From Escherichia phage TrudiGerster, in the sequence record MZ501108: a DNA stretch of 64,000 nt. One strand, 5' to 3'. The notes beneath the pieces are model-generated. The model was not told the origin of the DNA. It searched no databases and worked only from the letters and a program-made list of their open reading frames with translations. Numbering within the stretch: position 1 is the first letter of the stretch; each line of letters begins with the position of its first letter. A program made the position numbers and the translations under genes. Below, piece after piece: positions 44,985 to 53,730 of the stretch.

Positions 44985-45218
44985 TTACGATTCCTTGAGC
45001 AAAGAAGCCAGCTCAGCATAAACTTTATCTAACTCAAATCCAACGCGAAGGGACACACGAGTCTTCCGTTGTTTCAGAAGCCATATAGATACGTTAGGGA
45101 TACCAGCGAGACGAGGTGGTACAACCCTACATAACTTTTCCGCAGTGTCATATCCGGAACGTTTACTCTCTTTTACGGGGAACTTCCTTGTTTCCCATTT
45201 TTTATTCTTCGCTGTCAT
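44985..45218 (-). CDS. hypothetical small basic protein
   Basis: 77 aa from ATG MTAKNKKW after GGGAG RBS (track ORF extends to 45269); overlaps upstream gene end. Confidence 0.4.
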   Translation of the reverse strand: MTAKNKKWETRKFPVKESKRSGYDTAEKLCRVVPPRLAGIPNVSIWLLKQRKTRVSLRVGFELDKVYAELASLLKES

Positions 45219-47991
45219 TTCTAGCTCCCAGTTCTGCCAAAGCCTCTTCATGCATCTGACGTTCTTCATCAGTCATGAACTTAACTGGAATCGGCATACA
45301 CTCGATCTTACAGTAAGTTCTGTACCAGTCCACAATCTTTTCTGTATCCAAATCCTTTCCGATACCCATCATTCCCAAGTACATACGAGCATACTTTGGG
45401 TTTGCACTCTGACCTGTTTTAAGGAAGAAATCTTTCTTCTTACCTTTCAGAGCTTCGATAAATGGTTTGATTGTGACATTTGAACACTTCTTAATATCTT
45501 CCCAGAACATCTCGTGCATCTTATGGAAGAATGCAGCCCGATCGTTTGGTTTATCCTTGATATACTGTTCAACATGTTCAACTGTTACATCTTTAATAGA
45601 ATCAAGATGATAGTAACGAACTAGCAGAAGTTTTGCTTCATAAGCATCAGCATGACGTGGTGCACAATAATCAGGAGTTGAGTGCAGGATAGCTTTAATT
45701 CGCTCTTCTGTGTACTCTTTGTTTGCACCTTCGATAGTCCCCCAGCTTTCACTGAAGATATCAATAGTCGCACCCTGATCAAGCAGATAATAGCGTAGAG
45801 TACTAGTATAATTCCTAGACTCCAGCTCACGACGACGTGCATAAAGTTGCTGTGCTAACTCAATCCAACCTTCGTCAATATTATACTGCTCGGAACCCGC
45901 AGAAAATCCACTTGTAGACTTATCAATAAAGTAATAGATATTCTGAGCACCACGGTCGCGCCTGATTGCTTGAAAACGCATGTTTGGCGCTTGGTTACTG
46001 GTTCGAGTAATAACGAATACGTTATCGAAATAGTTAAAGTCAACCCCACTCGTTACAGAGGGACTACATAATAAACAATCAATCTGCTGATCAATTAGCT
46101 CATTAGTTGTGTAATCCAGAATACGACGAATATCCACATCTGATGTGGAATTTGAGTGAATTTCTTTAACTAACGCACCAGTATTACGACGTAACGCCAT
46201 ACCTTTTTCGTTCAGTTCATCCGGACCACAGTCAGATACTAGGATAGATTTCTCACCCATCTCTAGAGATGTTTGTAAGGCAACCCAAATGCTGGATTCA
46301 TCAGGGAACTCATAAGCATGAGCTTTTGCCAGCATTTTACGGTGATGATTATAGAACGCTACCGGTTTATCAAAGTCGATCAGAGAGCCATAGGCTTCAA
46401 TCGTTTCAGCACTAATATCACCATCAGACAGAATAACTGTTTTAGCTGTCATGAGAATATCACGAAGAACCTGAATACATTCACGACGGTTCTTAACAAC
46501 TGGAGCAAACAACAGGTCATTCATTACCGCGTCACATTCATCGATAAAGATTGTATCAATCTGACCAACAAAACTCTTGAATTTATGGATTGAGTGAATC
46601 GTAGTTGACATACGATCAATCGCACCACGCTTGAAGTTCAGCATATCTACAGACTTATCATACTGACCAGCACTAAATTTCTTTGCGTTTGAAGATACCA
46701 GAGCACGAGTGTTTGTTACCGCGATGAAATTCCCAGGAAGAACGCCAGCATCCAGCCACTTCGTTACCGCCGTAGTTTTACCTGTACCAAGACTTGCCTT
46801 AACAAATGTTAGGTGATCTTTTGGAGGTACAATGTTAATCTTCAGATATGGGACTTCCGCTGGAGAATCCGTATTTAACTGTTTTAGAGGAACACCTTTC
46901 AAGTTTTGTGGAATATCTCTACGACTATTGTTAACAAACGCTTTTAACGCCTGTTTACGACCGTTATTGAAGTAATCCTGAATATTACGACTATTATCTT
47001 TAGTTGCAATGTATTCAGACAAGGCAGGTTTAATCTCACGTTCTAACCACGCAAAATCAACACCATCCTCTAACGCTCGGTGATATAGTTTTGGAATAAT
47101 ACGCAGGTACACTCCATCCTCAGCTTCTTCTAATTCGCTGATGGTTTCCTCTACTTTTTCAGAAGCAGCCTTCTTACCTTTGATTTGATCGAGTAAAGAG
47201 TAGAACTCTTCTTTGAACTCACCCCTAGTTGTTTCATAGTCAACTAGGTTGTTTGGCAGATTTACTTTCGAACCCTTAACATACACAAGGCGTGGCTTAT
47301 TCTCCGCTTTAAACGGATCAACTATACCATCGCTAAATAAAGGGTCGGCAAAATAGTGAAGCTGTACAGAAGAATAATAAGCTAAGTCAGCAATATCAAA
47401 ACCATACTTTTGCTTACTACTATCGTTGATAGACGTAAATAAGAACTTTAACTGTCCCTGCGTCACCTTAACATTAGATTCCAGCATTAAGTGCATTCGG
47501 ATACCTGATTTTAATCCAGCCGAAGACGATGCATGAGCAATAAACCCTGCATCAAGAGGAAACATATCCTCACTAATACTATGTAACATCTTAATGATAT
47601 GACGTGCCATGCCAACAAGATTAAACTTGTCGTAACCACCAGTATCCTGAATACCATCCACGTCCATTGCAATAATGTGACTAGGATTAGAAACGTTAAA
47701 GTTTCCACGAGTACGACGGACATTATCCTTTGGAGCCAAACATTTACCACGAATAGCCACAATATGAGGATCTTGGGTTAGCCTACGCATAATAGGCAGC
47801 ATTTCAGCAAGGCTTTGCGGGTCAAGCTCTTCAAGTACATCAAATTTGAAGGGCATGGAAGCTGGTTTACCTTCCGGATGCTCTTTCGAGAATCGCTTAG
47901 CAAAGGTGTAATCTTCCACTTTAATTTCTTTCCAGATGCCTGTTGCTTTATCTCTGGAAAATCCTGCATGACCTTGTAGGATTGAGAACAC
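45202..47991 (-). CDS. putative replication initiator / origin-binding P-loop ATPase
   Basis: about 929 aa; Walker A SLGTGKTTA and Walker B-like IFIDECD in central region; likely GTG start after AGGAG (track ORF extends to 48057). Confidence 0.65.
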   Translation of the reverse strand: MFSILQGHAGFSRDKATGIWKEIKVEDYTFAKRFSKEHPEGKPASMPFKFDVLEELDPQSLAEMLPIMRRLTQDPHIVAIRGKCLAPKDNVRRTRGNFNVSNPSHIIAMDVDGIQDTGGYDKFNLVGMARHIIKMLHSISEDMFPLDAGFIAHASSSAGLKSGIRMHLMLESNVKVTQGQLKFLFTSINDSSKQKYGFDIADLAYYSSVQLHYFADPLFSDGIVDPFKAENKPRLVYVKGSKVNLPNNLVDYETTRGEFKEEFYSLLDQIKGKKAASEKVEETISELEEAEDGVYLRIIPKLYHRALEDGVDFAWLEREIKPALSEYIATKDNSRNIQDYFNNGRKQALKAFVNNSRRDIPQNLKGVPLKQLNTDSPAEVPYLKINIVPPKDHLTFVKASLGTGKTTAVTKWLDAGVLPGNFIAVTNTRALVSSNAKKFSAGQYDKSVDMLNFKRGAIDRMSTTIHSIHKFKSFVGQIDTIFIDECDAVMNDLLFAPVVKNRRECIQVLRDILMTAKTVILSDGDISAETIEAYGSLIDFDKPVAFYNHHRKMLAKAHAYEFPDESSIWVALQTSLEMGEKSILVSDCGPDELNEKGMALRRNTGALVKEIHSNSTSDVDIRRILDYTTNELIDQQIDCLLCSPSVTSGVDFNYFDNVFVITRTSNQAPNMRFQAIRRDRGAQNIYYFIDKSTSGFSAGSEQYNIDEGWIELAQQLYARRRELESRNYTSTLRYYLLDQGATIDIFSESWGTIEGANKEYTEERIKAILHSTPDYCAPRHADAYEAKLLLVRYYHLDSIKDVTVEHVEQYIKDKPNDRAAFFHKMHEMFWEDIKKCSNVTIKPFIEALKGKKKDFFLKTGQSANPKYARMYLGMMGIGKDLDTEKIVDWYRTYCKIECMPIPVKFMTDEERQMHEEALAELGARNDSEE

Positions 47992-48557
47992 AACAATACT
48001 CCTATGCTGGTTATTCGAATACTTTTCTTTAGGACTATTCAAAAAAGAATAGAACAACTATTACTAACGTCAACACAAATATTAATCATCATCAAGCAGT
48101 ATGGATAAGTTACCATACCTCAGTGCTGTGCTCTCTATACTCATATCCAGAATAGAAATTAGGTCTATCGGCCGCTAAGCCATTTCTATTTGTCCTCACT
48201 ATCCTATTGGTAGGTGACTACTGGACGTGTTACCATTCGCAGCTCTTTTCGTTCGCACCCCCATAAAAGCCTCTCCCTATCTAACGAAGCTAATATGCAC
48301 GGTTTGGATTTACCTTTCCGAATTCAGGGTACACAGATCACTTAATTGACAACCAACTAATATCGTATAAACATTAGTAATAGTTAAAACAACCTTTAAT
48401 GGGGCAGCCGAACTGTTCCGTATTGCGGATTGTAAACAAGAAAAATTAGTAAAATCAATTTTTACTAATGTCTCTCAATTCAATATAAATATTATATCAA
48501 CTTTTGGAGCATCCTGCAAGTAAAATTTTCCCGACGGTGCTATCAGTGGCCTTGAGT

Positions 48558-48587
48558 ACGGAGAAAACCGAGCCAAAGTGACTCGGT
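48558..48587 (-). terminator. rho-independent terminator after the paralog pair
   Basis: minus-strand hairpin accgag-tcactttgg-ctcggt followed by tttctcc. Confidence 0.55.
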
Positions 48588-48610: not shown

Positions 48611-49018
48611 TCAATCATCATTTAGACCTGGAACATAGATTCCAATACGGTTTAATTGATGTTTGGCTTCTTCGAGAATATCTGGAGTGTACTCCCAAAT
48701 ATCATCTTCCACAAATAACAAATAAGGGGACTCACCTGTTTCGGGGTCACGTGTAATGGCGTAACCGCGTGGGTGGAACAGGGAGAAGTTTAGGGCAACA
48801 ATAAGACCCATACGAGATAGCTCATTCCAGTGCATCTCAAAATCTACAGGAACATCATTTTGATCTCTACTGGTAACAAAGATTCCTAGACAAGGATCTG
48901 TCGGGTCAGTAAAGGGGAAAGTTACACTAACCTTTTCAACCCCCAACCAACGTGCAAGGAGCCCTTCAGCCCGCTCCACTAAACTAGGATCAATAAGACG
49001 CCAAGATACTTGTTCCAT
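48611..49018 (-). CDS. hypothetical protein, paralog B
   Basis: 135 aa; shares W.EL..MGL(I/V).ALN..LF.P ... W.Y.P(E/D) ... G..(V/I)PGL with the adjacent ORF. Confidence 0.5.
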   Translation of the reverse strand: MEQVSWRLIDPSLVERAEGLLARWLGVEKVSVTFPFTDPTDPCLGIFVTSRDQNDVPVDFEMHWNELSRMGLIVALNFSLFHPRGYAITRDPETGESPYLLFVEDDIWEYTPDILEEAKHQLNRIGIYVPGLNDD

Positions 49019-49028
49019 TCTGCCTCCT

Positions 49029-49457
49029 TTAAGCAGTTAAACCAGGGATCTGATAGCCGAAATGACGCAGCTTCTGGATACCCTCATTTATTTCTTCGGG
49101 CGAATAATGCCAGCCCTCACGTTCATTTACCTGGAAAGCCGGAGCCTCCCCATTACGATAGTTTACTATCAAACGATGTTTAATAGGCATGAACAGTTTG
49201 TAGTTCAATGCAAAAACCAATCCCATGTAGTCCAGTTCTTTCCAGTCTACAATCTCTTCTACCCCATCTTCCAACATTACACTGATACCAATGCAGCTAG
49301 CTTCATCAGAGTCTGAAGTAAACGCGAAAGCAATCTCATTATTCTCACACCAAATCTTGAGAGTATTAATGGCTTCCTCAAACAGATTATCCGGCAGAGA
49401 ACGCCAGAAGTTGATAAGAAGTGGATTGATATTGGTTTCAAATAGGTTATTAAACAT
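49029..49457 (-). CDS. hypothetical protein, paralog A
   Basis: 142 aa; paralogous to 48611-49018. Confidence 0.5.
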   Translation of the reverse strand: MFNNLFETNINPLLINFWRSLPDNLFEEAINTLKIWCENNEIAFAFTSDSDEASCIGISVMLEDGVEEIVDWKELDYMGLVFALNYKLFMPIKHRLIVNYRNGEAPAFQVNEREGWHYSPEEINEGIQKLRHFGYQIPGLTA

Positions 49458-49459
49458 AG

Positions 49460-49999
49460 CTATACCTTTAAGTTTTGAAGGGCTTTACACATTGCAAGAT
49501 CAGGACTAAACTCCAGCATATAGCTGATAGCATTCAGATCCTGCATATTTATTCCAGTTCTACCATTGACAATAACTGTTGGATACTGGTACATCATAGC
49601 TCCAGCATCATCTAGGACACACCAGTGCTTGAGTTTGTACTTTTCCACAAACCGAAGAACAGAATTGCCTCTAGATAATCCACCACCAGTAAAATCAGTA
49701 GTACCAAGAAAACGATCAACCAGACCTAACGCGGTCATGATCTCAACATTCTCCACCTCGTTACGTACTGTAAACCATGATGAAACCCCAACAATCATTA
49801 TACCGGATGGTTTTAAGAAGTTCTGGAAAGCCTGTAGTAAAGGTTTGAAAACCCAGTCTCCACCAAAGAAGATCTTCTCTTCATCTGGAGCATGGTGGTG
49901 AGAGATGCTCGAATTGAGCACCCCATCAATATCCAGAAAAATAATTGGAGTATTACTTAGATCCACCGGATTTGTCCCATTGCAGAGTTTTAGCTTCAT
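49460..49999 (-). CDS. HAD-superfamily phosphatase (nucleotidase-like)
   Basis: 179 aa; HAD motif I IIFLDIDGVLN near N-terminus. Confidence 0.6.
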   Translation of the reverse strand: MKLKLCNGTNPVDLSNTPIIFLDIDGVLNSSISHHHAPDEEKIFFGGDWVFKPLLQAFQNFLKPSGIMIVGVSSWFTVRNEVENVEIMTALGLVDRFLGTTDFTGGGLSRGNSVLRFVEKYKLKHWCVLDDAGAMMYQYPTVIVNGRTGINMQDLNAISYMLEFSPDLAMCKALQNLKV

Positions 50000-50138
50000 C
50001 GGAGAAAGGAATATGGTAGTCTACCTTACCCTTACCAAACATAGCCGCCAAAAATACAGTATAGATAGTAATCATACCAATCAGGTTTACAGTCCACACC
50101 AATACTTTCCAGATACCCTTAAAAATCTTCTTCACCAT
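49953..50138 (-). CDS. small membrane protein
   Basis: 61 aa with one hydrophobic helix (WKVLVWTVNLIGMITIYTVFLAAMF); overlaps HAD gene start in another frame. Confidence 0.35.
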   Translation of the reverse strand: MVKKIFKGIWKVLVWTVNLIGMITIYTVFLAAMFGKGKVDYHIPFSDEAKTLQWDKSGGSK

Positions 50139-50301
50139 ATTCTTCCTCCTTAATCAGGAATTCTTTCCATTCTGCTGTATCCTCATAGATAACGCAGAAA
50201 TCATCACTCTTGCACGAGAAATCATCAGTAGCATATTCAAAACGGTAGCACCAACTACCATCTGGCCATACTAAAAGATCACACATGCTTTTGCGGTGCA
50301 T
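50119..50301 (-). CDS. small acidic Cys-containing protein
   Basis: 60 aa ORF overlapping neighbours at both ends; four Cys. Confidence 0.3.
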   Translation of the reverse strand: MHRKSMCDLLVWPDGSWCYRFEYATDDFSCKSDDFCVIYEDTAEWKEFLIKEEEYGEEDF

Positions 50302-51055
50302 AAATAGTTCCTTCCATAAAAGCCCCTACTTGGCCAATAAAGTGTTTGTTACCAAAAACTTCGGCAGCCCCAGCACGCCATACAGTAACACCACGTTTCT
50401 CATACAAGGACTGTTCTAAGTAGTTGATAGTTGGGTTAACAACCATCATCTTAGTACCCCGTGCCACCGCAGGAAATAGTTCCCAGTTGAAGTTGATAAC
50501 TTGGTTACTGCACCCAACCACGATAACCATATCATTAGCCGTAAGACTATCGAAAGTAGCGTTCATCAAAGCGTATTCAGGGGCTACTTCACCGAAGAAT
50601 ACAACGTTAGGCTTAGCCCAATAAAACTCATCAGGATCTATGGCAGTATAACCCACATCTAGGATATACTCTTTTCGATCTGGCAATTCCTTAATACGAA
50701 CTTCTGGTAAATAACCATGAACGTGTAGAACTTCACTTTTTGGCACACCAGCCCTTTCCAGTAGATCATCCACGTTAGTAGTGATGTTCAGTACAGTCTC
50801 TGGATATCGTTGGAACCACTCCCCAATGCGGAGATGCGCAATGTTAGGTTCAACAGTCTGCAATTCCTGACGACGCTTGTTGTAGAACTCGTGGGTTTTC
50901 CAGTAGAACTGTCCACGGAAAGCATGAATATCACATACTTCTTCCAGATCGTATTCATCCCACATTGCCTTGCCACTAGCAGTATCTGTACGGAATGCAC
51001 GGATACCACTATCAACACTTAAACCTGCACCACTAACAATAATTAGTCTACGCAT
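50279..51055 (-). CDS. Sir2-family (sirtuin-like) protein lacking the zinc ribbon
   Basis: 258 aa; GAGLSVDSGIRAFR, TTNVDDLLERAG, LHVHGYL match sirtuin NAD-binding/catalytic motifs; no CxxC pairs. Confidence 0.7.
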   Translation of the reverse strand: MRRLIIVSGAGLSVDSGIRAFRTDTASGKAMWDEYDLEEVCDIHAFRGQFYWKTHEFYNKRRQELQTVEPNIAHLRIGEWFQRYPETVLNITTNVDDLLERAGVPKSEVLHVHGYLPEVRIKELPDRKEYILDVGYTAIDPDEFYWAKPNVVFFGEVAPEYALMNATFDSLTANDMVIVVGCSNQVINFNWELFPAVARGTKMMVVNPTINYLEQSLYEKRGVTVWRAGAAEVFGNKHFIGQVGAFMEGTIYAPQKHV

Positions 51056-51784: not shown

Positions 51785-51813
51785 ATTATACACAAATTTT
51801 TAGCTGAAAGCAA
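51785..51813 (-). promoter_or_regulatory. early promoter driving the Sir2/HAD operon
   Basis: minus strand TTGCTT - 17 nt - TATAAT followed by AGATTTATAAATTTGAGAGGAG. Confidence 0.6.
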
Positions 51814-51848
51814 ATAAAATAAAAGCCAGGTCGACTAGCAACCTGGCT
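51812..51848 (-). terminator. rho-independent terminator after nrdD
   Basis: minus-strand hairpin agccaggt-tgctagtcg-acctggct followed by tttattttattt. Confidence 0.7.
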
Positions 51849-51855
51849 GATTCAC

Positions 51856-53730
51856 TTATTTAGCGCGAACGTCTCTATGTTTCACTCGACCCATAACCTC
51901 ATGTTGTTTACCAGGGTTAAAAGGACGTGCTCCTGGGTTCCCAAGATAACCACAAACTCGACGAGTTACCTCTAAAGTTTCAGGATCATGGTTTCCACAG
52001 ATAGGACATTTGAATCCATCCTCAGAAGCGATAGTCTCACCCAAGAATCCACACTCACCACAGGAATCTACGGGGGTATTAATACCGAAGTAATGAACCT
52101 TACTTGCAGCATAATTAATAACCCATTCCAATGCATCAGGGAATTTCTTCATATCAGGTAATTCCACATAGGAAATGCACCCACCAGAAGCAATTGGGGT
52201 AAAGTTAGACTCATAATCAAACTTCACGTTTGGAGCAACCTTACGTTCCACATCAAGGTGATGTGAGTTAGTATAGTATCCTTTACCAAGAATATCTTCA
52301 TGCTCTGGGAAATATTCACGGTCTAGACGACAGAAGCGATCACATAGGGATTCAGAAGGCGTTGCATACAAACTGTACCCTAACTGAGTTTCTTCCTTCT
52401 TCTGATCTGCACGATCACGCATATATTGTAAAACACGCTGTACAAACTTAATGCAGGTGTCAGACATTGTATCTACATCCTTACCAAACATAAACTGTAA
52501 CATTTCATGGCAGCCAATGTACCCTAGTGATACAGAAGCACGCTTGTAGAAATGATCAAACACATATTCATCGGGCCCCAGACGTAATCCAAAGGCTCCT
52601 GACATATAGAGGATGGGCGCAGCTTTAGCTTGAATGTATTTTAAGCGATCAACCCTCCACTCCAATGCTTTAAGTGCAGTATCAACACGCAGCTCAAGCA
52701 GATCGAAAAACAGATCAATATCTCCATCGGCTTCGATAGCGATTCGAGGAAGGTTTACAGAAACGACACCTAAGTTATTACGACCTGATGTTTCTCCATC
52801 TTCCGCAGCAGCTAAGAATGAGCGGCAGCCCATAGAAACTTTGTAGTCTCCAGTAACTTCAACTACCTTATCATAGCTGATATAGTCAGGATACATACGT
52901 TCGGCAGTACACTTCATAGCTAACTTCTTGATATCGTAGTTTACATCACCAGGTTTCATATTAACGCCATCACGAAGTACAAATACCAGTTTAGGGAAGA
53001 TTGCAGTACGTTTATTGATACCCAGACCATCCATACGTACTTCTAGGATTGCTTTCTGTACAAGACGAGCTTCCCAAGAAGTTCCTAAACCAAAGCCAAA
53101 GGTGATAAAAGGACTCTGACCATTAGAGTTGAACATCGTATTGATCTCATACTCTAGACCCTGACAGGCGTCGTAAACTTCTTTCTCAGTCATTTCCGTA
53201 GCCATTACAGATGCTTTGGCTTCGTCCTTAGTCCAACGCTTAGCGAACGCATGGTTCTTATCATAAGATTTACGAACGTAAGGGGCTAATACTTCATCAA
53301 GACGGTCAACAGAAGTACCGCCATATTGATGGGAGCTAACCTGAGTAATAATCTGAGCTGTAATAGCAGCCGCAGTAGTGATAGAATTTGGCGTACTGAT
53401 TTCAGCATTACCAACCTTCATACCATTCTTCAACATATCTTCCAAAGCAACGAGGCAACAGTTAGTCATACCTAAAGCTGCATAGTCAGCATCGTGGAAG
53501 TGAATATCACCAATCATATGAGCATTTCGAATCTGAATCGGCATTTCTTCTAGAATCAGATACTTACTCAACTCACCTGCTAGCATATCCCTTTGAGTAG
53601 GGAAGCGTTCTGAAGGTTTATTGGCGTTATTAAACAGCAGCTCTTCATCTGCTGAACCTTCGATAATTTCCTTGCAGTTTGTAATTAAAGACTGCATTCT
53701 TTTAATCTTCATCTGATCATTGTGATTCAT
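51856..53730 (-). CDS. nrdD: anaerobic ribonucleoside-triphosphate reductase (class III)
   Basis: 624 aa; C-terminal Zn-ribbon Cys pairs (SCGECGF ... CPICGNH) and glycyl-radical motif TRRVCGYLG. Confidence 0.85.
   Translation of the reverse strand: MNHNDQMKIKRMQSLITNCKEIIEGSADEELLFNNANKPSERFPTQRDMLAGELSKYLILEEMPIQIRNAHMIGDIHFHDADYAALGMTNCCLVALEDMLKNGMKVGNAEISTPNSITTAAAITAQIITQVSSHQYGGTSVDRLDEVLAPYVRKSYDKNHAFAKRWTKDEAKASVMATEMTEKEVYDACQGLEYEINTMFNSNGQSPFITFGFGLGTSWEARLVQKAILEVRMDGLGINKRTAIFPKLVFVLRDGVNMKPGDVNYDIKKLAMKCTAERMYPDYISYDKVVEVTGDYKVSMGCRSFLAAAEDGETSGRNNLGVVSVNLPRIAIEADGDIDLFFDLLELRVDTALKALEWRVDRLKYIQAKAAPILYMSGAFGLRLGPDEYVFDHFYKRASVSLGYIGCHEMLQFMFGKDVDTMSDTCIKFVQRVLQYMRDRADQKKEETQLGYSLYATPSESLCDRFCRLDREYFPEHEDILGKGYYTNSHHLDVERKVAPNVKFDYESNFTPIASGGCISYVELPDMKKFPDALEWVINYAASKVHYFGINTPVDSCGECGFLGETIASEDGFKCPICGNHDPETLEVTRRVCGYLGNPGARPFNPGKQHEVMGRVKHRDVRAK

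What the first reader, a model, noticed from the sequence alone, without database searches (positions are those of the whole stretch)
48611..49457. Tandem paralogous gene pair of unknown function
The adjacent 135 and 142 aa ORFs share a clearly alignable core (W.EL..MGL(I/V).ALN..LF.P ... W.Y.P(E/D) ... G..(V/I)PGL) but are otherwise diverged, indicating an old tandem duplication retained under selection. Diversifying duplicated small early genes in virulent phages are often host-interaction factors.
Basis: seen in the sequence. Interest (0 to 1): 0.45.

Follow-up and report, generated by a model that had tools for sequence, protein, structure and literature searches.

The report
Conserved T5 early paralog pair (DUF7415)
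Two neighbouring small genes of this T5-like phage are real, ancient duplicates of one another, already catalogued as a family of unknown function (DUF7415), strongly conserved rather than diversifying, and the T5 counterpart of one of them gave a modest fitness signal in a published knock-down screen.

Summary
On the minus strand, 49029-49457 (142 aa, "B") and 48611-49018 (135 aa, "A") are paralogs: 34% identity over 129 aa, E 4e-22, z 30 against shuffles, and the same predicted fold.

They are orthologs of phage T5 genes T5.106 and T5.107. Both belong to Pfam DUF7415 and PHROG 2502. The pair, always ordered B then A, is present in more than 500 T5-like genomes, including Klebsiella Sugarlandvirus, so the duplication is old.

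The "diversifying" reading is not supported: dN/dS is about 0.1 in both genes.

Each protein appears to consist of two ~55-aa DUF7415 modules. Only the C-terminal module of A keeps the family's canonical motif. That single module is widespread in phages and prophages, mostly of Gammaproteobacteria. It occurs alone or fused to nucleotide or nucleic-acid enzymes (ASCH/DUF3850, exonuclease, PF04447 pyrophosphohydrolase, thymidylate kinase).

Both proteins are acidic (pI ~4.4). No solved structure resembles them.

In a published CRISPRi-ART screen, T5.107 is one of only 17 T5 fitness genes.

Most likely the two proteins form a non-enzymatic protein-binding complex acting in early DNA or nucleotide metabolism. 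This is inferred, not shown. The family is catalogued but uncharacterised, so interest is moderate to low.

The parts
51785..51813 (-). Candidate early promoter of the operon (TTGCTT, 17 nt spacer, TATAAT), directly after the nrdD terminator
   Evidence: Read from the sequence. The nrdD terminator at 51848..51824 was found. T5 records annotate an early promoter (T5P31) at the orthologous position. The -35 hexamer matches the consensus at only 3 of 6 positions, so the consensus scan did not list this site.
49460..49999 (-). Upstream neighbour in the same operon: a HAD-family phosphatase-like protein (T5.105 ortholog). Its stop codon lies 2 nt before the start of B.
   Evidence: Pfam HAD_SAK_2, E 8.7e-19; PHROG 1818. 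It is not universally linked to the pair, because Sugarland lacks it.
49029..49457 (-). Gene B, 142 aa, ortholog of T5.106. It has a degenerate DUF7415 architecture.
   Evidence: Against a profile built from single-module DUF7415 proteins, its C-terminal module scores only 30.1 bits, and the canonical His is replaced (FMP).
49260..49421 (-). B, N-terminal DUF7415-like module (residues about 13-66)
   Evidence: On its own it scores 57.8 bits against PF24187. The AF2 model shows strand, short helix, helix, strand, strand.
49101..49259 (-). B, C-terminal DUF7415 module (residues about 67-119)
   Evidence: On its own it scores 51.6 bits against PF24187. Mean identity among orthologs is 90%.
49023..49028 (-). 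Shine-Dalgarno sequence AGGAGG for gene A. It follows the B stop codon directly and lies 4 nt before the A start codon.
   Evidence: Read from the sequence.
48611..49018 (-). Gene A, 135 aa, ortholog of T5.107. It is 100% identical to bas27_0047 of Escherichia phage TrudiGerster.
   Evidence: T5.107 is called 'Fit' in the CRISPRi-ART screen (PMC11879866 supplements).
48851..49018 (-). A, N-terminal DUF7415-like module (residues 1-56)
   Evidence: On its own it scores 40.7 bits against PF24187.
48686..48850 (-). A, C-terminal canonical DUF7415 module (residues 57-111). It is the only one of the four modules that keeps the family motif W-N-E-L-S..G-L...N...H-P.G.A..R.P.T-G.S-P.
   Evidence: It scores 70.5 bits against the single-module profile, compared with 30.1 for B, and 57.4 bits against PF24187.
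48563..48587 (-). Rho-independent terminator that ends the operon: 9-bp stem, CUU loop, then UUUUCUCC
   Evidence: RNA fold of -18 kcal/mol, z -3.4 against shuffles. T5 and Sugarland records annotate a terminator at the same place.

Best explanation
SHOWN: Two co-oriented genes sit at the end of an early operon (nrdD terminator, promoter, small ORFs, Sir2, HAD, B, A, terminator). A has its own strong Shine-Dalgarno sequence directly after the B stop codon. They encode acidic ~15-16 kDa paralogs, orthologs of T5.106 and T5.107, of the DUF7415 family. The gene duplication is ancient and both copies are under purifying selection.

PROBABLE: Each protein is itself a tandem of two ~55-aa DUF7415 modules (strand, short helix, helix, hairpin) followed by a C-terminal helix. 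The locus therefore encodes four modules, and only the C-terminal module of A keeps the canonical motif of the family.

INFERRED MECHANISM: DUF7415 is a non-catalytic protein-binding or oligomerisation module. In other phages it works as a small stand-alone protein or as an appendage on nucleotide or nucleic-acid enzymes. In T5-like phages, A and B would assemble into a four-module hetero-complex, a fixed pseudo-oligomer. A would supply the conserved binding surface and B would act as a degenerate scaffold. The complex would bind a protein partner in early DNA or nucleotide metabolism and so support phage fitness.
For: Paralogy and shared fold.

Operon anatomy: and the T5 annotation.

Conservation and co-retention: 524 records with about two places each; order B then A in all 31 T5-like genomes and in Sugarland; dN/dS 0.08-0.13; neighbour-joining tree with A-type and B-type clades, no bootstrap. 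Where I saw only one copy (Pectobacterium phage DU_PP_V), it is A-type.

Four modules: each half passes the Pfam cut-off on its own, and both AF2 models show the element order repeated.

A canonical, B degenerate: 70.5 against 30.1 bits with the single-module profile. A tblastn search with a single-module query finds one place per T5-like record, and the listed coordinates fall in the A gene.

Binding rather than DNA contact or catalysis: pI is 4.4-4.5 with net charge -12 to -14, and the family core has a median pI of 4.5. The His of the motif is lost in B and in many B-type sequences while the proteins remain conserved.

Module used as an appendage: fusions occur in both orders with DUF3850/ASCH, and with an Rv2179c-like 3'-5' exonuclease, the PF04447 dATP/dGTP pyrophosphohydrolase domain and thymidylate kinase. 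NCBI names the 185-aa proteins P0277/P0298 'MazG-like', but Pfam found only DUF7415 in P0298.

DNA or nucleotide-metabolism contexts: directly after the replication initiator gpA in P2-like prophages, between nrdD and nrdG in Klebsiella phage KP179, next to the ligase gene in a T4-like phage, and in T5 between nrdD and the origin-binding protein gene.

Fitness: T5.107 is one of 17 'Fit' genes in the T5 CRISPRi-ART screen (fitness -2.90, p 0.0215). T5.106 is 'Not Fit' but has one of the lower p-values among the neighbouring genes shown (-3.28, p 0.167) (PMC11879866 supplementary files 1 and 16).
Against: No interaction between A and B was tested. Only single chains could be modelled, so the hetero-complex is pure inference.

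Homology between the N- and C-terminal halves is weak outside the Pfam model, which may have been seeded with both halves. hhalign of N-half against C-half gives E 0.027, and N-half against the single-module profile gives E 7.5e-4 at 25% probability. My single-module profile does not detect the N halves at all.

The single-module gene also sits in a late structural operon, between gpL and gpX, in 17-19 of 44 non-redundant P2-like loci. That looks like a self-contained accessory ('moron') gene rather than a replication-linked factor.

The T5.107 fitness signal is marginal (p 0.02), and the screen was insensitive: even the origin-binding protein gene scored 'Not Fit'.

The family-wide conserved polar residues (N, H, R, S, W, Y) would also fit a ligand-binding site.
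Confidence: 0.4

Rival explanations
1. The pair is an anti-defence or host-takeover inhibitor. The acidic proteins would act as decoys or inhibitors, for example as DNA mimics of a host DNA-binding defence or repair protein. The duplication would broaden or strengthen target coverage.
For: Both proteins are strongly acidic, as is the family core. They are small early proteins of a virulent phage. Single-module relatives occupy typical accessory-gene slots in several operons, including the gpL-gpX junction of P2-like late operons and the variable region after gpA. Some are fused to nucleotide-degrading enzymes.
Confidence: 0.25
2. DUF7415 is a small ligand-binding or catalytic domain, for example one that binds a nucleotide, and the conserved N/H/R/S/W/Y residues form its site. 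A would be the active subunit. B and the N-terminal modules would be inactive pseudo-domains that complete the fold.
For: The single-module family has invariant N and G and nearly invariant H-P, L-A and G.S positions. All four Pfam-identified fusion partners act on nucleotides or nucleic acids: ASCH/DUF3850, Rv2179c-like exonuclease, PF04447 and thymidylate kinase. One single-module gene is inserted between nrdD and nrdG. Only A keeps the motif.
Against: A ~55-aa module with a single conserved His, no Cys and no known nucleotide-binding motif is an unlikely enzyme. B-type proteins have lost the His yet remain under equally strong purifying selection. No structural similarity to any nucleotide-binding fold was found.
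Confidence: 0.15
3. The paralogs have sub-functionalised and act independently, each as a homo-oligomer with its own partner. Their adjacency would simply be a relic of the duplication.
For: They share only 34% identity. The motif content of their C-terminal modules differs. The CRISPRi-ART calls differ: T5.107 'Fit', T5.106 'Not Fit'. DU_PP_V keeps only an A-type gene.
Against: Adjacency, order and tight spacing are invariant across more than 500 genomes, and the genes overlap by 4 nt in Sugarland. The pattern of one canonical and one degenerate copy is typical of obligate hetero-oligomers, but this is an inference.
Confidence: 0.15
4. The similarity is a chance or compositional artefact, or the ORFs are not real genes.
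For: None.
Against: E 4e-22 and z 30.5. dN/dS is about 0.1. The AF2 models are confident. The Pfam and PHROG matches are strong. Orthologs exist in more than 500 genomes.
Confidence: 0.01

Closest known systems
Phage T5 genes T5.106 (YP_006934; ORF098, AAX12035) and T5.107 (YP_006935; AAX12036, annotated 'Aeh1ORF298c-like')
   Same: They are direct orthologs, 70% (B) and 65% (A) identical. They have the same order, the same operon position between the HAD gene and a terminator upstream of the origin-binding protein gene, and an annotated early promoter.
   Different: The window's A carries a 5-residue longer loop in its N-terminal module (135 aa against 130 aa). Nothing functional is known for the T5 genes beyond the CRISPRi-ART fitness call for T5.107.
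Single-module DUF7415 proteins (PF24187; PHROGs 3954, 1812, 33705) of P2-like prophages and T4-like phages
   Same: They share the core module and motif (IDWNELS..GLI.RIN.EILHPLGLA..R.P.TG.SPG..V..DG.WEY). The C-terminal module of A scores 70.5 bits against their profile. They are also acidic.
   Different: They have one module of 60-110 aa with a variable tail, instead of two modules plus a C-terminal helix. They are not present as a tandem pair. They occur in many genomic positions: after gpA, between gpL and gpX, between nrdD and nrdG, and near the ligase gene.
DUF7415 fusion proteins: ASCH/DUF3850-DUF7415 (for example the 150-aa protein after gene A in a P2 isolate), Rv2179c-like exonuclease-DUF7415, PF04447-DUF7415 and thymidylate-kinase fusions
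   Same: They carry the same module, usually at the C terminus after a '(I/V)GGCDW' linker.
   Different: The window proteins have no enzymatic domain. They consist only of DUF7415 modules.
Acidic phage decoy proteins such as Ocr (T7 gp0.3), ArdA or Ugi (functional analogy only, recalled from general knowledge)
   Same: They are small, strongly acidic, early-expressed phage proteins.
   Different: No sequence or structural similarity was detected to any solved structure. The pair is conserved under purifying selection rather than patchy and fast-evolving.

Membership tests
Pfam PF24187 (DUF7415) | Score above the curated gathering threshold (27 bits) of the family HMM | tested here: met
   A scores 93.8 bits and B 105.5 bits, each with two matched stretches. 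The halves tested separately score 40.7 (A N-terminal), 57.4 (A C-terminal), 57.8 (B N-terminal) and 51.6 bits (B C-terminal).
Pfam PF24187 (DUF7415) | Canonical core motif of the single-module family (W-N-E-L-S, G-L, N, H-P-x-G-x-A, R, G-x-S-P) | tested here: met
   The motif is met in the C-terminal module of A only (70.5 bits against my single-module profile). B is degenerate (30.1 bits; His replaced by Met and Ser by Ala). The N-terminal modules are not detected by that profile.
PHROG 2502 / VOG3964 (the T5-type two-module proteins) | Full-length match to the family profile | tested here: met
   E 9.1e-54 (A, residues 1-134) and 3.9e-56 (B, residues 11-142). Both rutana orthologs are annotated VOG3964. 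The CRISPRi-ART re-annotation lists T5.106 and T5.107 as phrog_2502.
Internal tandem repeat (two homologous modules per protein) | Significant similarity between the N- and C-terminal halves that is independent of the Pfam model | tested here: inconclusive
   BLASTP between the halves finds nothing. hhalign gives E 0.027 for N-half against C-half, and E 7.5e-4 (probability 25%, in register) for N-half against the single-module profile. The order of secondary-structure elements is repeated in both AF2 models.
DNA-mimic or anti-restriction proteins (Ocr, ArdA type) | Strongly acidic protein | tested here: met
   pI 4.37 and 4.51, net charge -14 and -12.
DNA-mimic or anti-restriction proteins (Ocr, ArdA type) | Sequence or structural similarity to a known mimic, or a DNA-like charge array | tested here: not met
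Known anti-phage-defence-associated proteins (PADLOC-DB) | Match to a PADLOC model | tested here: not met
   A has no match. B has only a 14.3-bit match at E 0.006 to PDC-S04, which is not meaningful.
'Tail tube protein' and 'exonuclease' (names given to orthologs in some GenBank records) | Match to a tail-tube or exonuclease family, and a structural-module context | tested here: not met
   Pfam, PHROG and NCBIfam give no such match. The genes lie in an early operon between nrdD and the origin-binding protein gene. The names appear to be propagated annotation errors.
Obligate A:B hetero-oligomer | Physical interaction between the two proteins | not testable with these tools
   Only single chains could be modelled. 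Support is indirect: invariant adjacency and co-retention.

The most novel reading that the evidence does not exclude
DUF7415 would be a previously unrecognised small fold that phages use as a universal 'address tag'. As a stand-alone protein, or fused to nucleotide-processing enzymes (ASCH, 3'-5' exonuclease, PF04447 pyrophosphohydrolase, thymidylate kinase), it would dock onto one conserved partner in the infected cell. In T5-like phages the tag would have been duplicated twice into a hetero-complex of four modules (T5.106/T5.107) that has become important for early DNA metabolism. This would identify a new and experimentally tractable T5 replication or takeover factor.
Probability: 0.2. Interest if true: 0.6.

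Novelty: already known. Interest (0 to 1): 0.3.

Why it matters
T5 is a classic model phage, yet most of its early genes have no assigned function. T5.107, the ortholog of gene A here, is one of only 17 genes that scored as fitness-relevant in the one genome-wide T5 knock-down screen I found, and its authors list it among the genes 'of entirely unknown function'.

This analysis adds a concrete structural and evolutionary frame:
- T5.107 is the canonical member of an ancient, co-retained pair.
- The pair is built from four copies of a small acidic module.
- That module also occurs on nucleotide and nucleic-acid enzymes in many phages and prophages, mostly of Gammaproteobacteria.

This turns 'two hypothetical proteins' into a testable hypothesis: an A:B complex with one functional surface and a protein partner in early DNA or nucleotide metabolism. 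It also flags propagated mis-annotations ('tail tube protein', 'exonuclease'). The family is already catalogued and nothing here is mechanistically surprising yet, so the finding is solid but of moderate to low interest.

Tried and rejected
- Sequence-profile searches of all PDB chains with the two-module alignment and the single-module alignment found nothing meaningful.
- NCBIfam and PADLOC gave no meaningful hits.
- Literature searches for DUF7415, PF24187, phrog_2502, Aeh1ORF298c, VOG3964, T5.106, T5.107 and T5 gene D1 found nothing. The T5 growth-inhibitor study (PMC8201957) tested only T5.002-T5.017.
- The internal repeat was not visible by direct BLASTP of the halves and was only weakly supported by hhalign.
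- I considered a functional link to the adjacent HAD gene, because T5 annotators noted homologs of both in Aeromonas phage Aeh1. I set it aside: Sugarland has the pair without the HAD gene, and the HAD gene is found in few phages outside Markadamsvirinae.
- The 83-aa ORF upstream of the single copy in DU_PP_V is not a detectable B remnant.
- The two small ORFs between the Sir2 and HAD genes show no pairwise similarity, although their T5 counterparts T5.103 and T5.104 share a PHROG label.
- Rfam found nothing in the adjacent intergenic region.

Full report
**What is there.** The window is a T5-like phage of the family Demerecviridae. The closest record is Salmonella phage rutana, genus Epseptimavirus, and gene A is 100% identical to bas27_0047 of Escherichia phage TrudiGerster. 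The finding covers two adjacent minus-strand genes: B (49029..49457, 142 aa) and A (48611..49018, 135 aa).

They close an early operon. Reading along the minus strand, the order is:
- nrdD (51856..53730) and its terminator (51848..51824);
- a candidate promoter, TTGCTT-17-TATAAT, at 51813..51785;
- small ORFs, then Sir2 (50279..51055), then two more small ORFs;
- a HAD_SAK_2 phosphatase-like gene (49460..49999);
- B, then A;
- a rho-independent terminator (stem 48587..48567 plus a U-tract; -18 kcal/mol, z -3.4).

A ~500-nt ORF-free gap and the origin-binding protein gene follow. The B stop codon is followed directly by AGGAGG and, 4 nt later, the A start codon. T5 records annotate the same promoter, gene order and terminator.

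**Check of the observation.** A and B align at 34% identity over 129 residues, E 4e-22. The Smith-Waterman score lies 30 standard deviations above shuffles. Both match Pfam DUF7415 and PHROG 2502 over their full length. Their AlphaFold2 models are confident (pLDDT 86.8 and 91.7) and show the same order of elements. The B model superposes on an A-type ortholog with TM 0.86/0.93. There is no third copy in the window.

**Age of the duplication and selection.**
- tblastn with B finds 524 phage records with 1039 places, which is about two per record.
- In all 31 T5-like genomes with both genes that I examined (window plus 30 loci), the order is B then A with a 9-10 nt spacer.
- In Klebsiella phage Sugarland, a different genus of Demerecviridae, the two genes overlap by 4 nt.
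- A neighbour-joining tree places the upstream Sugarland gene with B and the downstream one with A. It also places the single copy of Pectobacterium phage DU_PP_V (Mccorquodalevirinae) with A. The bootstrap run timed out, so the tree has no support values.
- The duplication therefore probably predates the split of Markadamsvirinae and Sugarlandvirus.
- Nei-Gojobori dN/dS has a median of 0.13 for A and 0.08 for B, and no pair exceeds 0.45.
- The C-terminal modules are about 90% identical among orthologs. Variation concentrates in the hairpin loops of the N-terminal modules.

"Diversifying" is not.

**Architecture.** Each half of each protein passes the Pfam DUF7415 cut-off on its own (40.7 to 57.8 bits). 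Both models show the order strand, short helix, long helix, strand, strand twice, followed by a C-terminal helix.

Independent support for homology between the halves is weak:
- hhalign of N-half against C-half gives E 0.027.
- hhalign of N-half against a profile of single-module proteins gives E 7.5e-4 in register, at 25% probability.
- My single-module profile does not detect the N halves at all.

I therefore treat "two modules per protein" as probable, not proven.

An exhaustive HMM search of 1.8 billion representative proteins found 148 matches at E of 0.001 or lower, a few of which are repetitive false positives. About 20 are two-module proteins. Most of the rest match only the C-terminal module. 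These are 60-110 aa proteins with the motif IDWNELS..GLI.RIN.EILHPLGLA..R.P.TG.SPG. Against a profile of these, the C-terminal module of A scores 70.5 bits and that of B only 30.1. B has lost the His and Ser of the motif. So one of the four modules is canonical and three are degenerate.

**What the wider family says.** Single-module genes are carried mainly by phages and prophages of Gammaproteobacteria. They occupy varied positions:
- one or two genes after the replication initiator gpA in P2-like prophages, next to or fused with DUF3850/ASCH;
- between gpL and gpX in the late operon in 17-19 of 44 non-redundant IMG/VR loci;
- between nrdD and nrdG in Klebsiella phage KP179;
- near the DNA ligase gene in a T4-like phage.

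Fusion partners identified by Pfam are DUF3850/ASCH (in both orders), an Rv2179c-like 3'-5' exonuclease, the PF04447 dATP/dGTP pyrophosphohydrolase domain and thymidylate kinase. NCBI names one 185-aa fusion 'MazG-like', but Pfam did not confirm that domain. A, B and the family core are all acidic, with pI about 4.4-4.5. No solved structure resembles the model, and no PDB sequence matches.

**Experimental evidence in the literature.** In the CRISPRi-ART transcriptome-wide knock-down screen of T5 (PMC11879866, supplementary files 1, 8 and 16), T5.107 is one of 17 'Fit' genes (fitness -2.90, p 0.0215). The authors list it among those 'of entirely unknown function'. T5.106 is 'Not Fit' (-3.28, p 0.167). 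The screen was insensitive: the origin-binding protein gene also scored 'Not Fit'. The signal is therefore suggestive rather than strong. No paper in the library mentions DUF7415, T5.106 or T5.107 in its main text.

**Most likely mechanism (inferred).** DUF7415 behaves like a small, acidic, non-catalytic binding or oligomerisation module that phages use alone or attach to nucleotide and nucleic-acid enzymes. In T5-like phages, two rounds of duplication would have produced a fixed four-module assembly encoded by two tightly linked genes. A would contribute the one canonical surface and B would act as a degenerate partner. The complex would bind a protein partner during early DNA or nucleotide metabolism. 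I put this at about 0.4.

The rivals are:
- an acidic decoy or anti-defence inhibitor (0.25), favoured by the accessory-gene-like positions of single-module genes and disfavoured by strong purifying selection and near-universal retention;
- a ligand-binding or catalytic module (0.15);
- independently acting, sub-functionalised paralogs (0.15);
- an artefact, which is excluded.

**Novelty and verdict.** The proteins are catalogued members of an uncharacterised family (DUF7415, PHROG 2502, VOG3964), and both genes already carry the same family labels in public annotation. As an observation the finding is therefore already known. What this analysis adds:
- the pair's antiquity and purifying selection;
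- the four-module reading, with a single canonical module;
- the fusion and neighbourhood spectrum of the module;
- the link to a published fitness phenotype.

Interest is moderate to low (0.3). It would rise if an A:B complex with a defined partner were demonstrated.

Noticed in passing
window 48061-48471 (non-coding gap between the A terminator and the origin-binding protein gene): Four of the window's ten matches to ACATTAGTAA (at most 1 mismatch) cluster within 410 nt here. They include a near-palindromic pair at 48439-48454 and 48460-48475. The window-wide count is not above chance, but the local clustering is striking. This could be an operator or iteron cluster upstream of the origin-binding protein gene.
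   Followed up: partly
window 48058-48562: A ~500-nt ORF-free stretch lies between the operon terminator and the origin-binding protein gene. It is also present in T5, where the annotated promoter P32 lies about 470 nt before the gene start. Rfam finds no match.
   Followed up: partly
window 45202-48057 (-): The mechanical ORF for the origin-binding protein starts at a TTG and is 951 aa long. The PHROG alignment begins at residue 23 and the T5 and rutana genes are 928-929 aa. The real start is therefore probably a downstream codon.
   Followed up: no
window 49460-49999 (-) and orthologs: The HAD_SAK_2 phosphatase-like gene upstream of B is labelled 'Sir2 (NAD-dependent deacetylase)' in several records, including T5.105 and PHROG 18062. 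It is distinct from the true Sir2 gene at 50279-51055, so this is probably a propagated annotation error.
   Followed up: partly
GenBank records of T5-like phages (for example STWB21, DU_PP_V, JLBYU43, T5_ev219, GEC_vB_N5): Orthologs of A and B are variously annotated 'tail tube protein' or 'exonuclease (ACLAME 70)'. No family search supports either name.
   Followed up: yes
L044 (Klebsiella phage KP179) 4001-4219: A 72-aa single-module DUF7415 gene is wedged between the anaerobic ribonucleotide reductase genes nrdD and nrdG and overlaps both.
   Followed up: no
IMG/VR loci L047, L050, L052, L062, L080 and others: In many P2-like contigs a 62-70 aa DUF7415 gene sits between the head-completion gene gpL and the tail gene gpX in the late operon, abutting both. 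This is an accessory-gene ('moron') position inside a structural operon.
   Followed up: partly
window 49953-50301 (-): The two small overlapping ORFs (60 and 61 aa) between the Sir2 and HAD genes show no pairwise similarity by BLASTP. Their T5 counterparts T5.103 and T5.104 are nevertheless both labelled phrog_5116 in a published re-annotation.
   Followed up: partly
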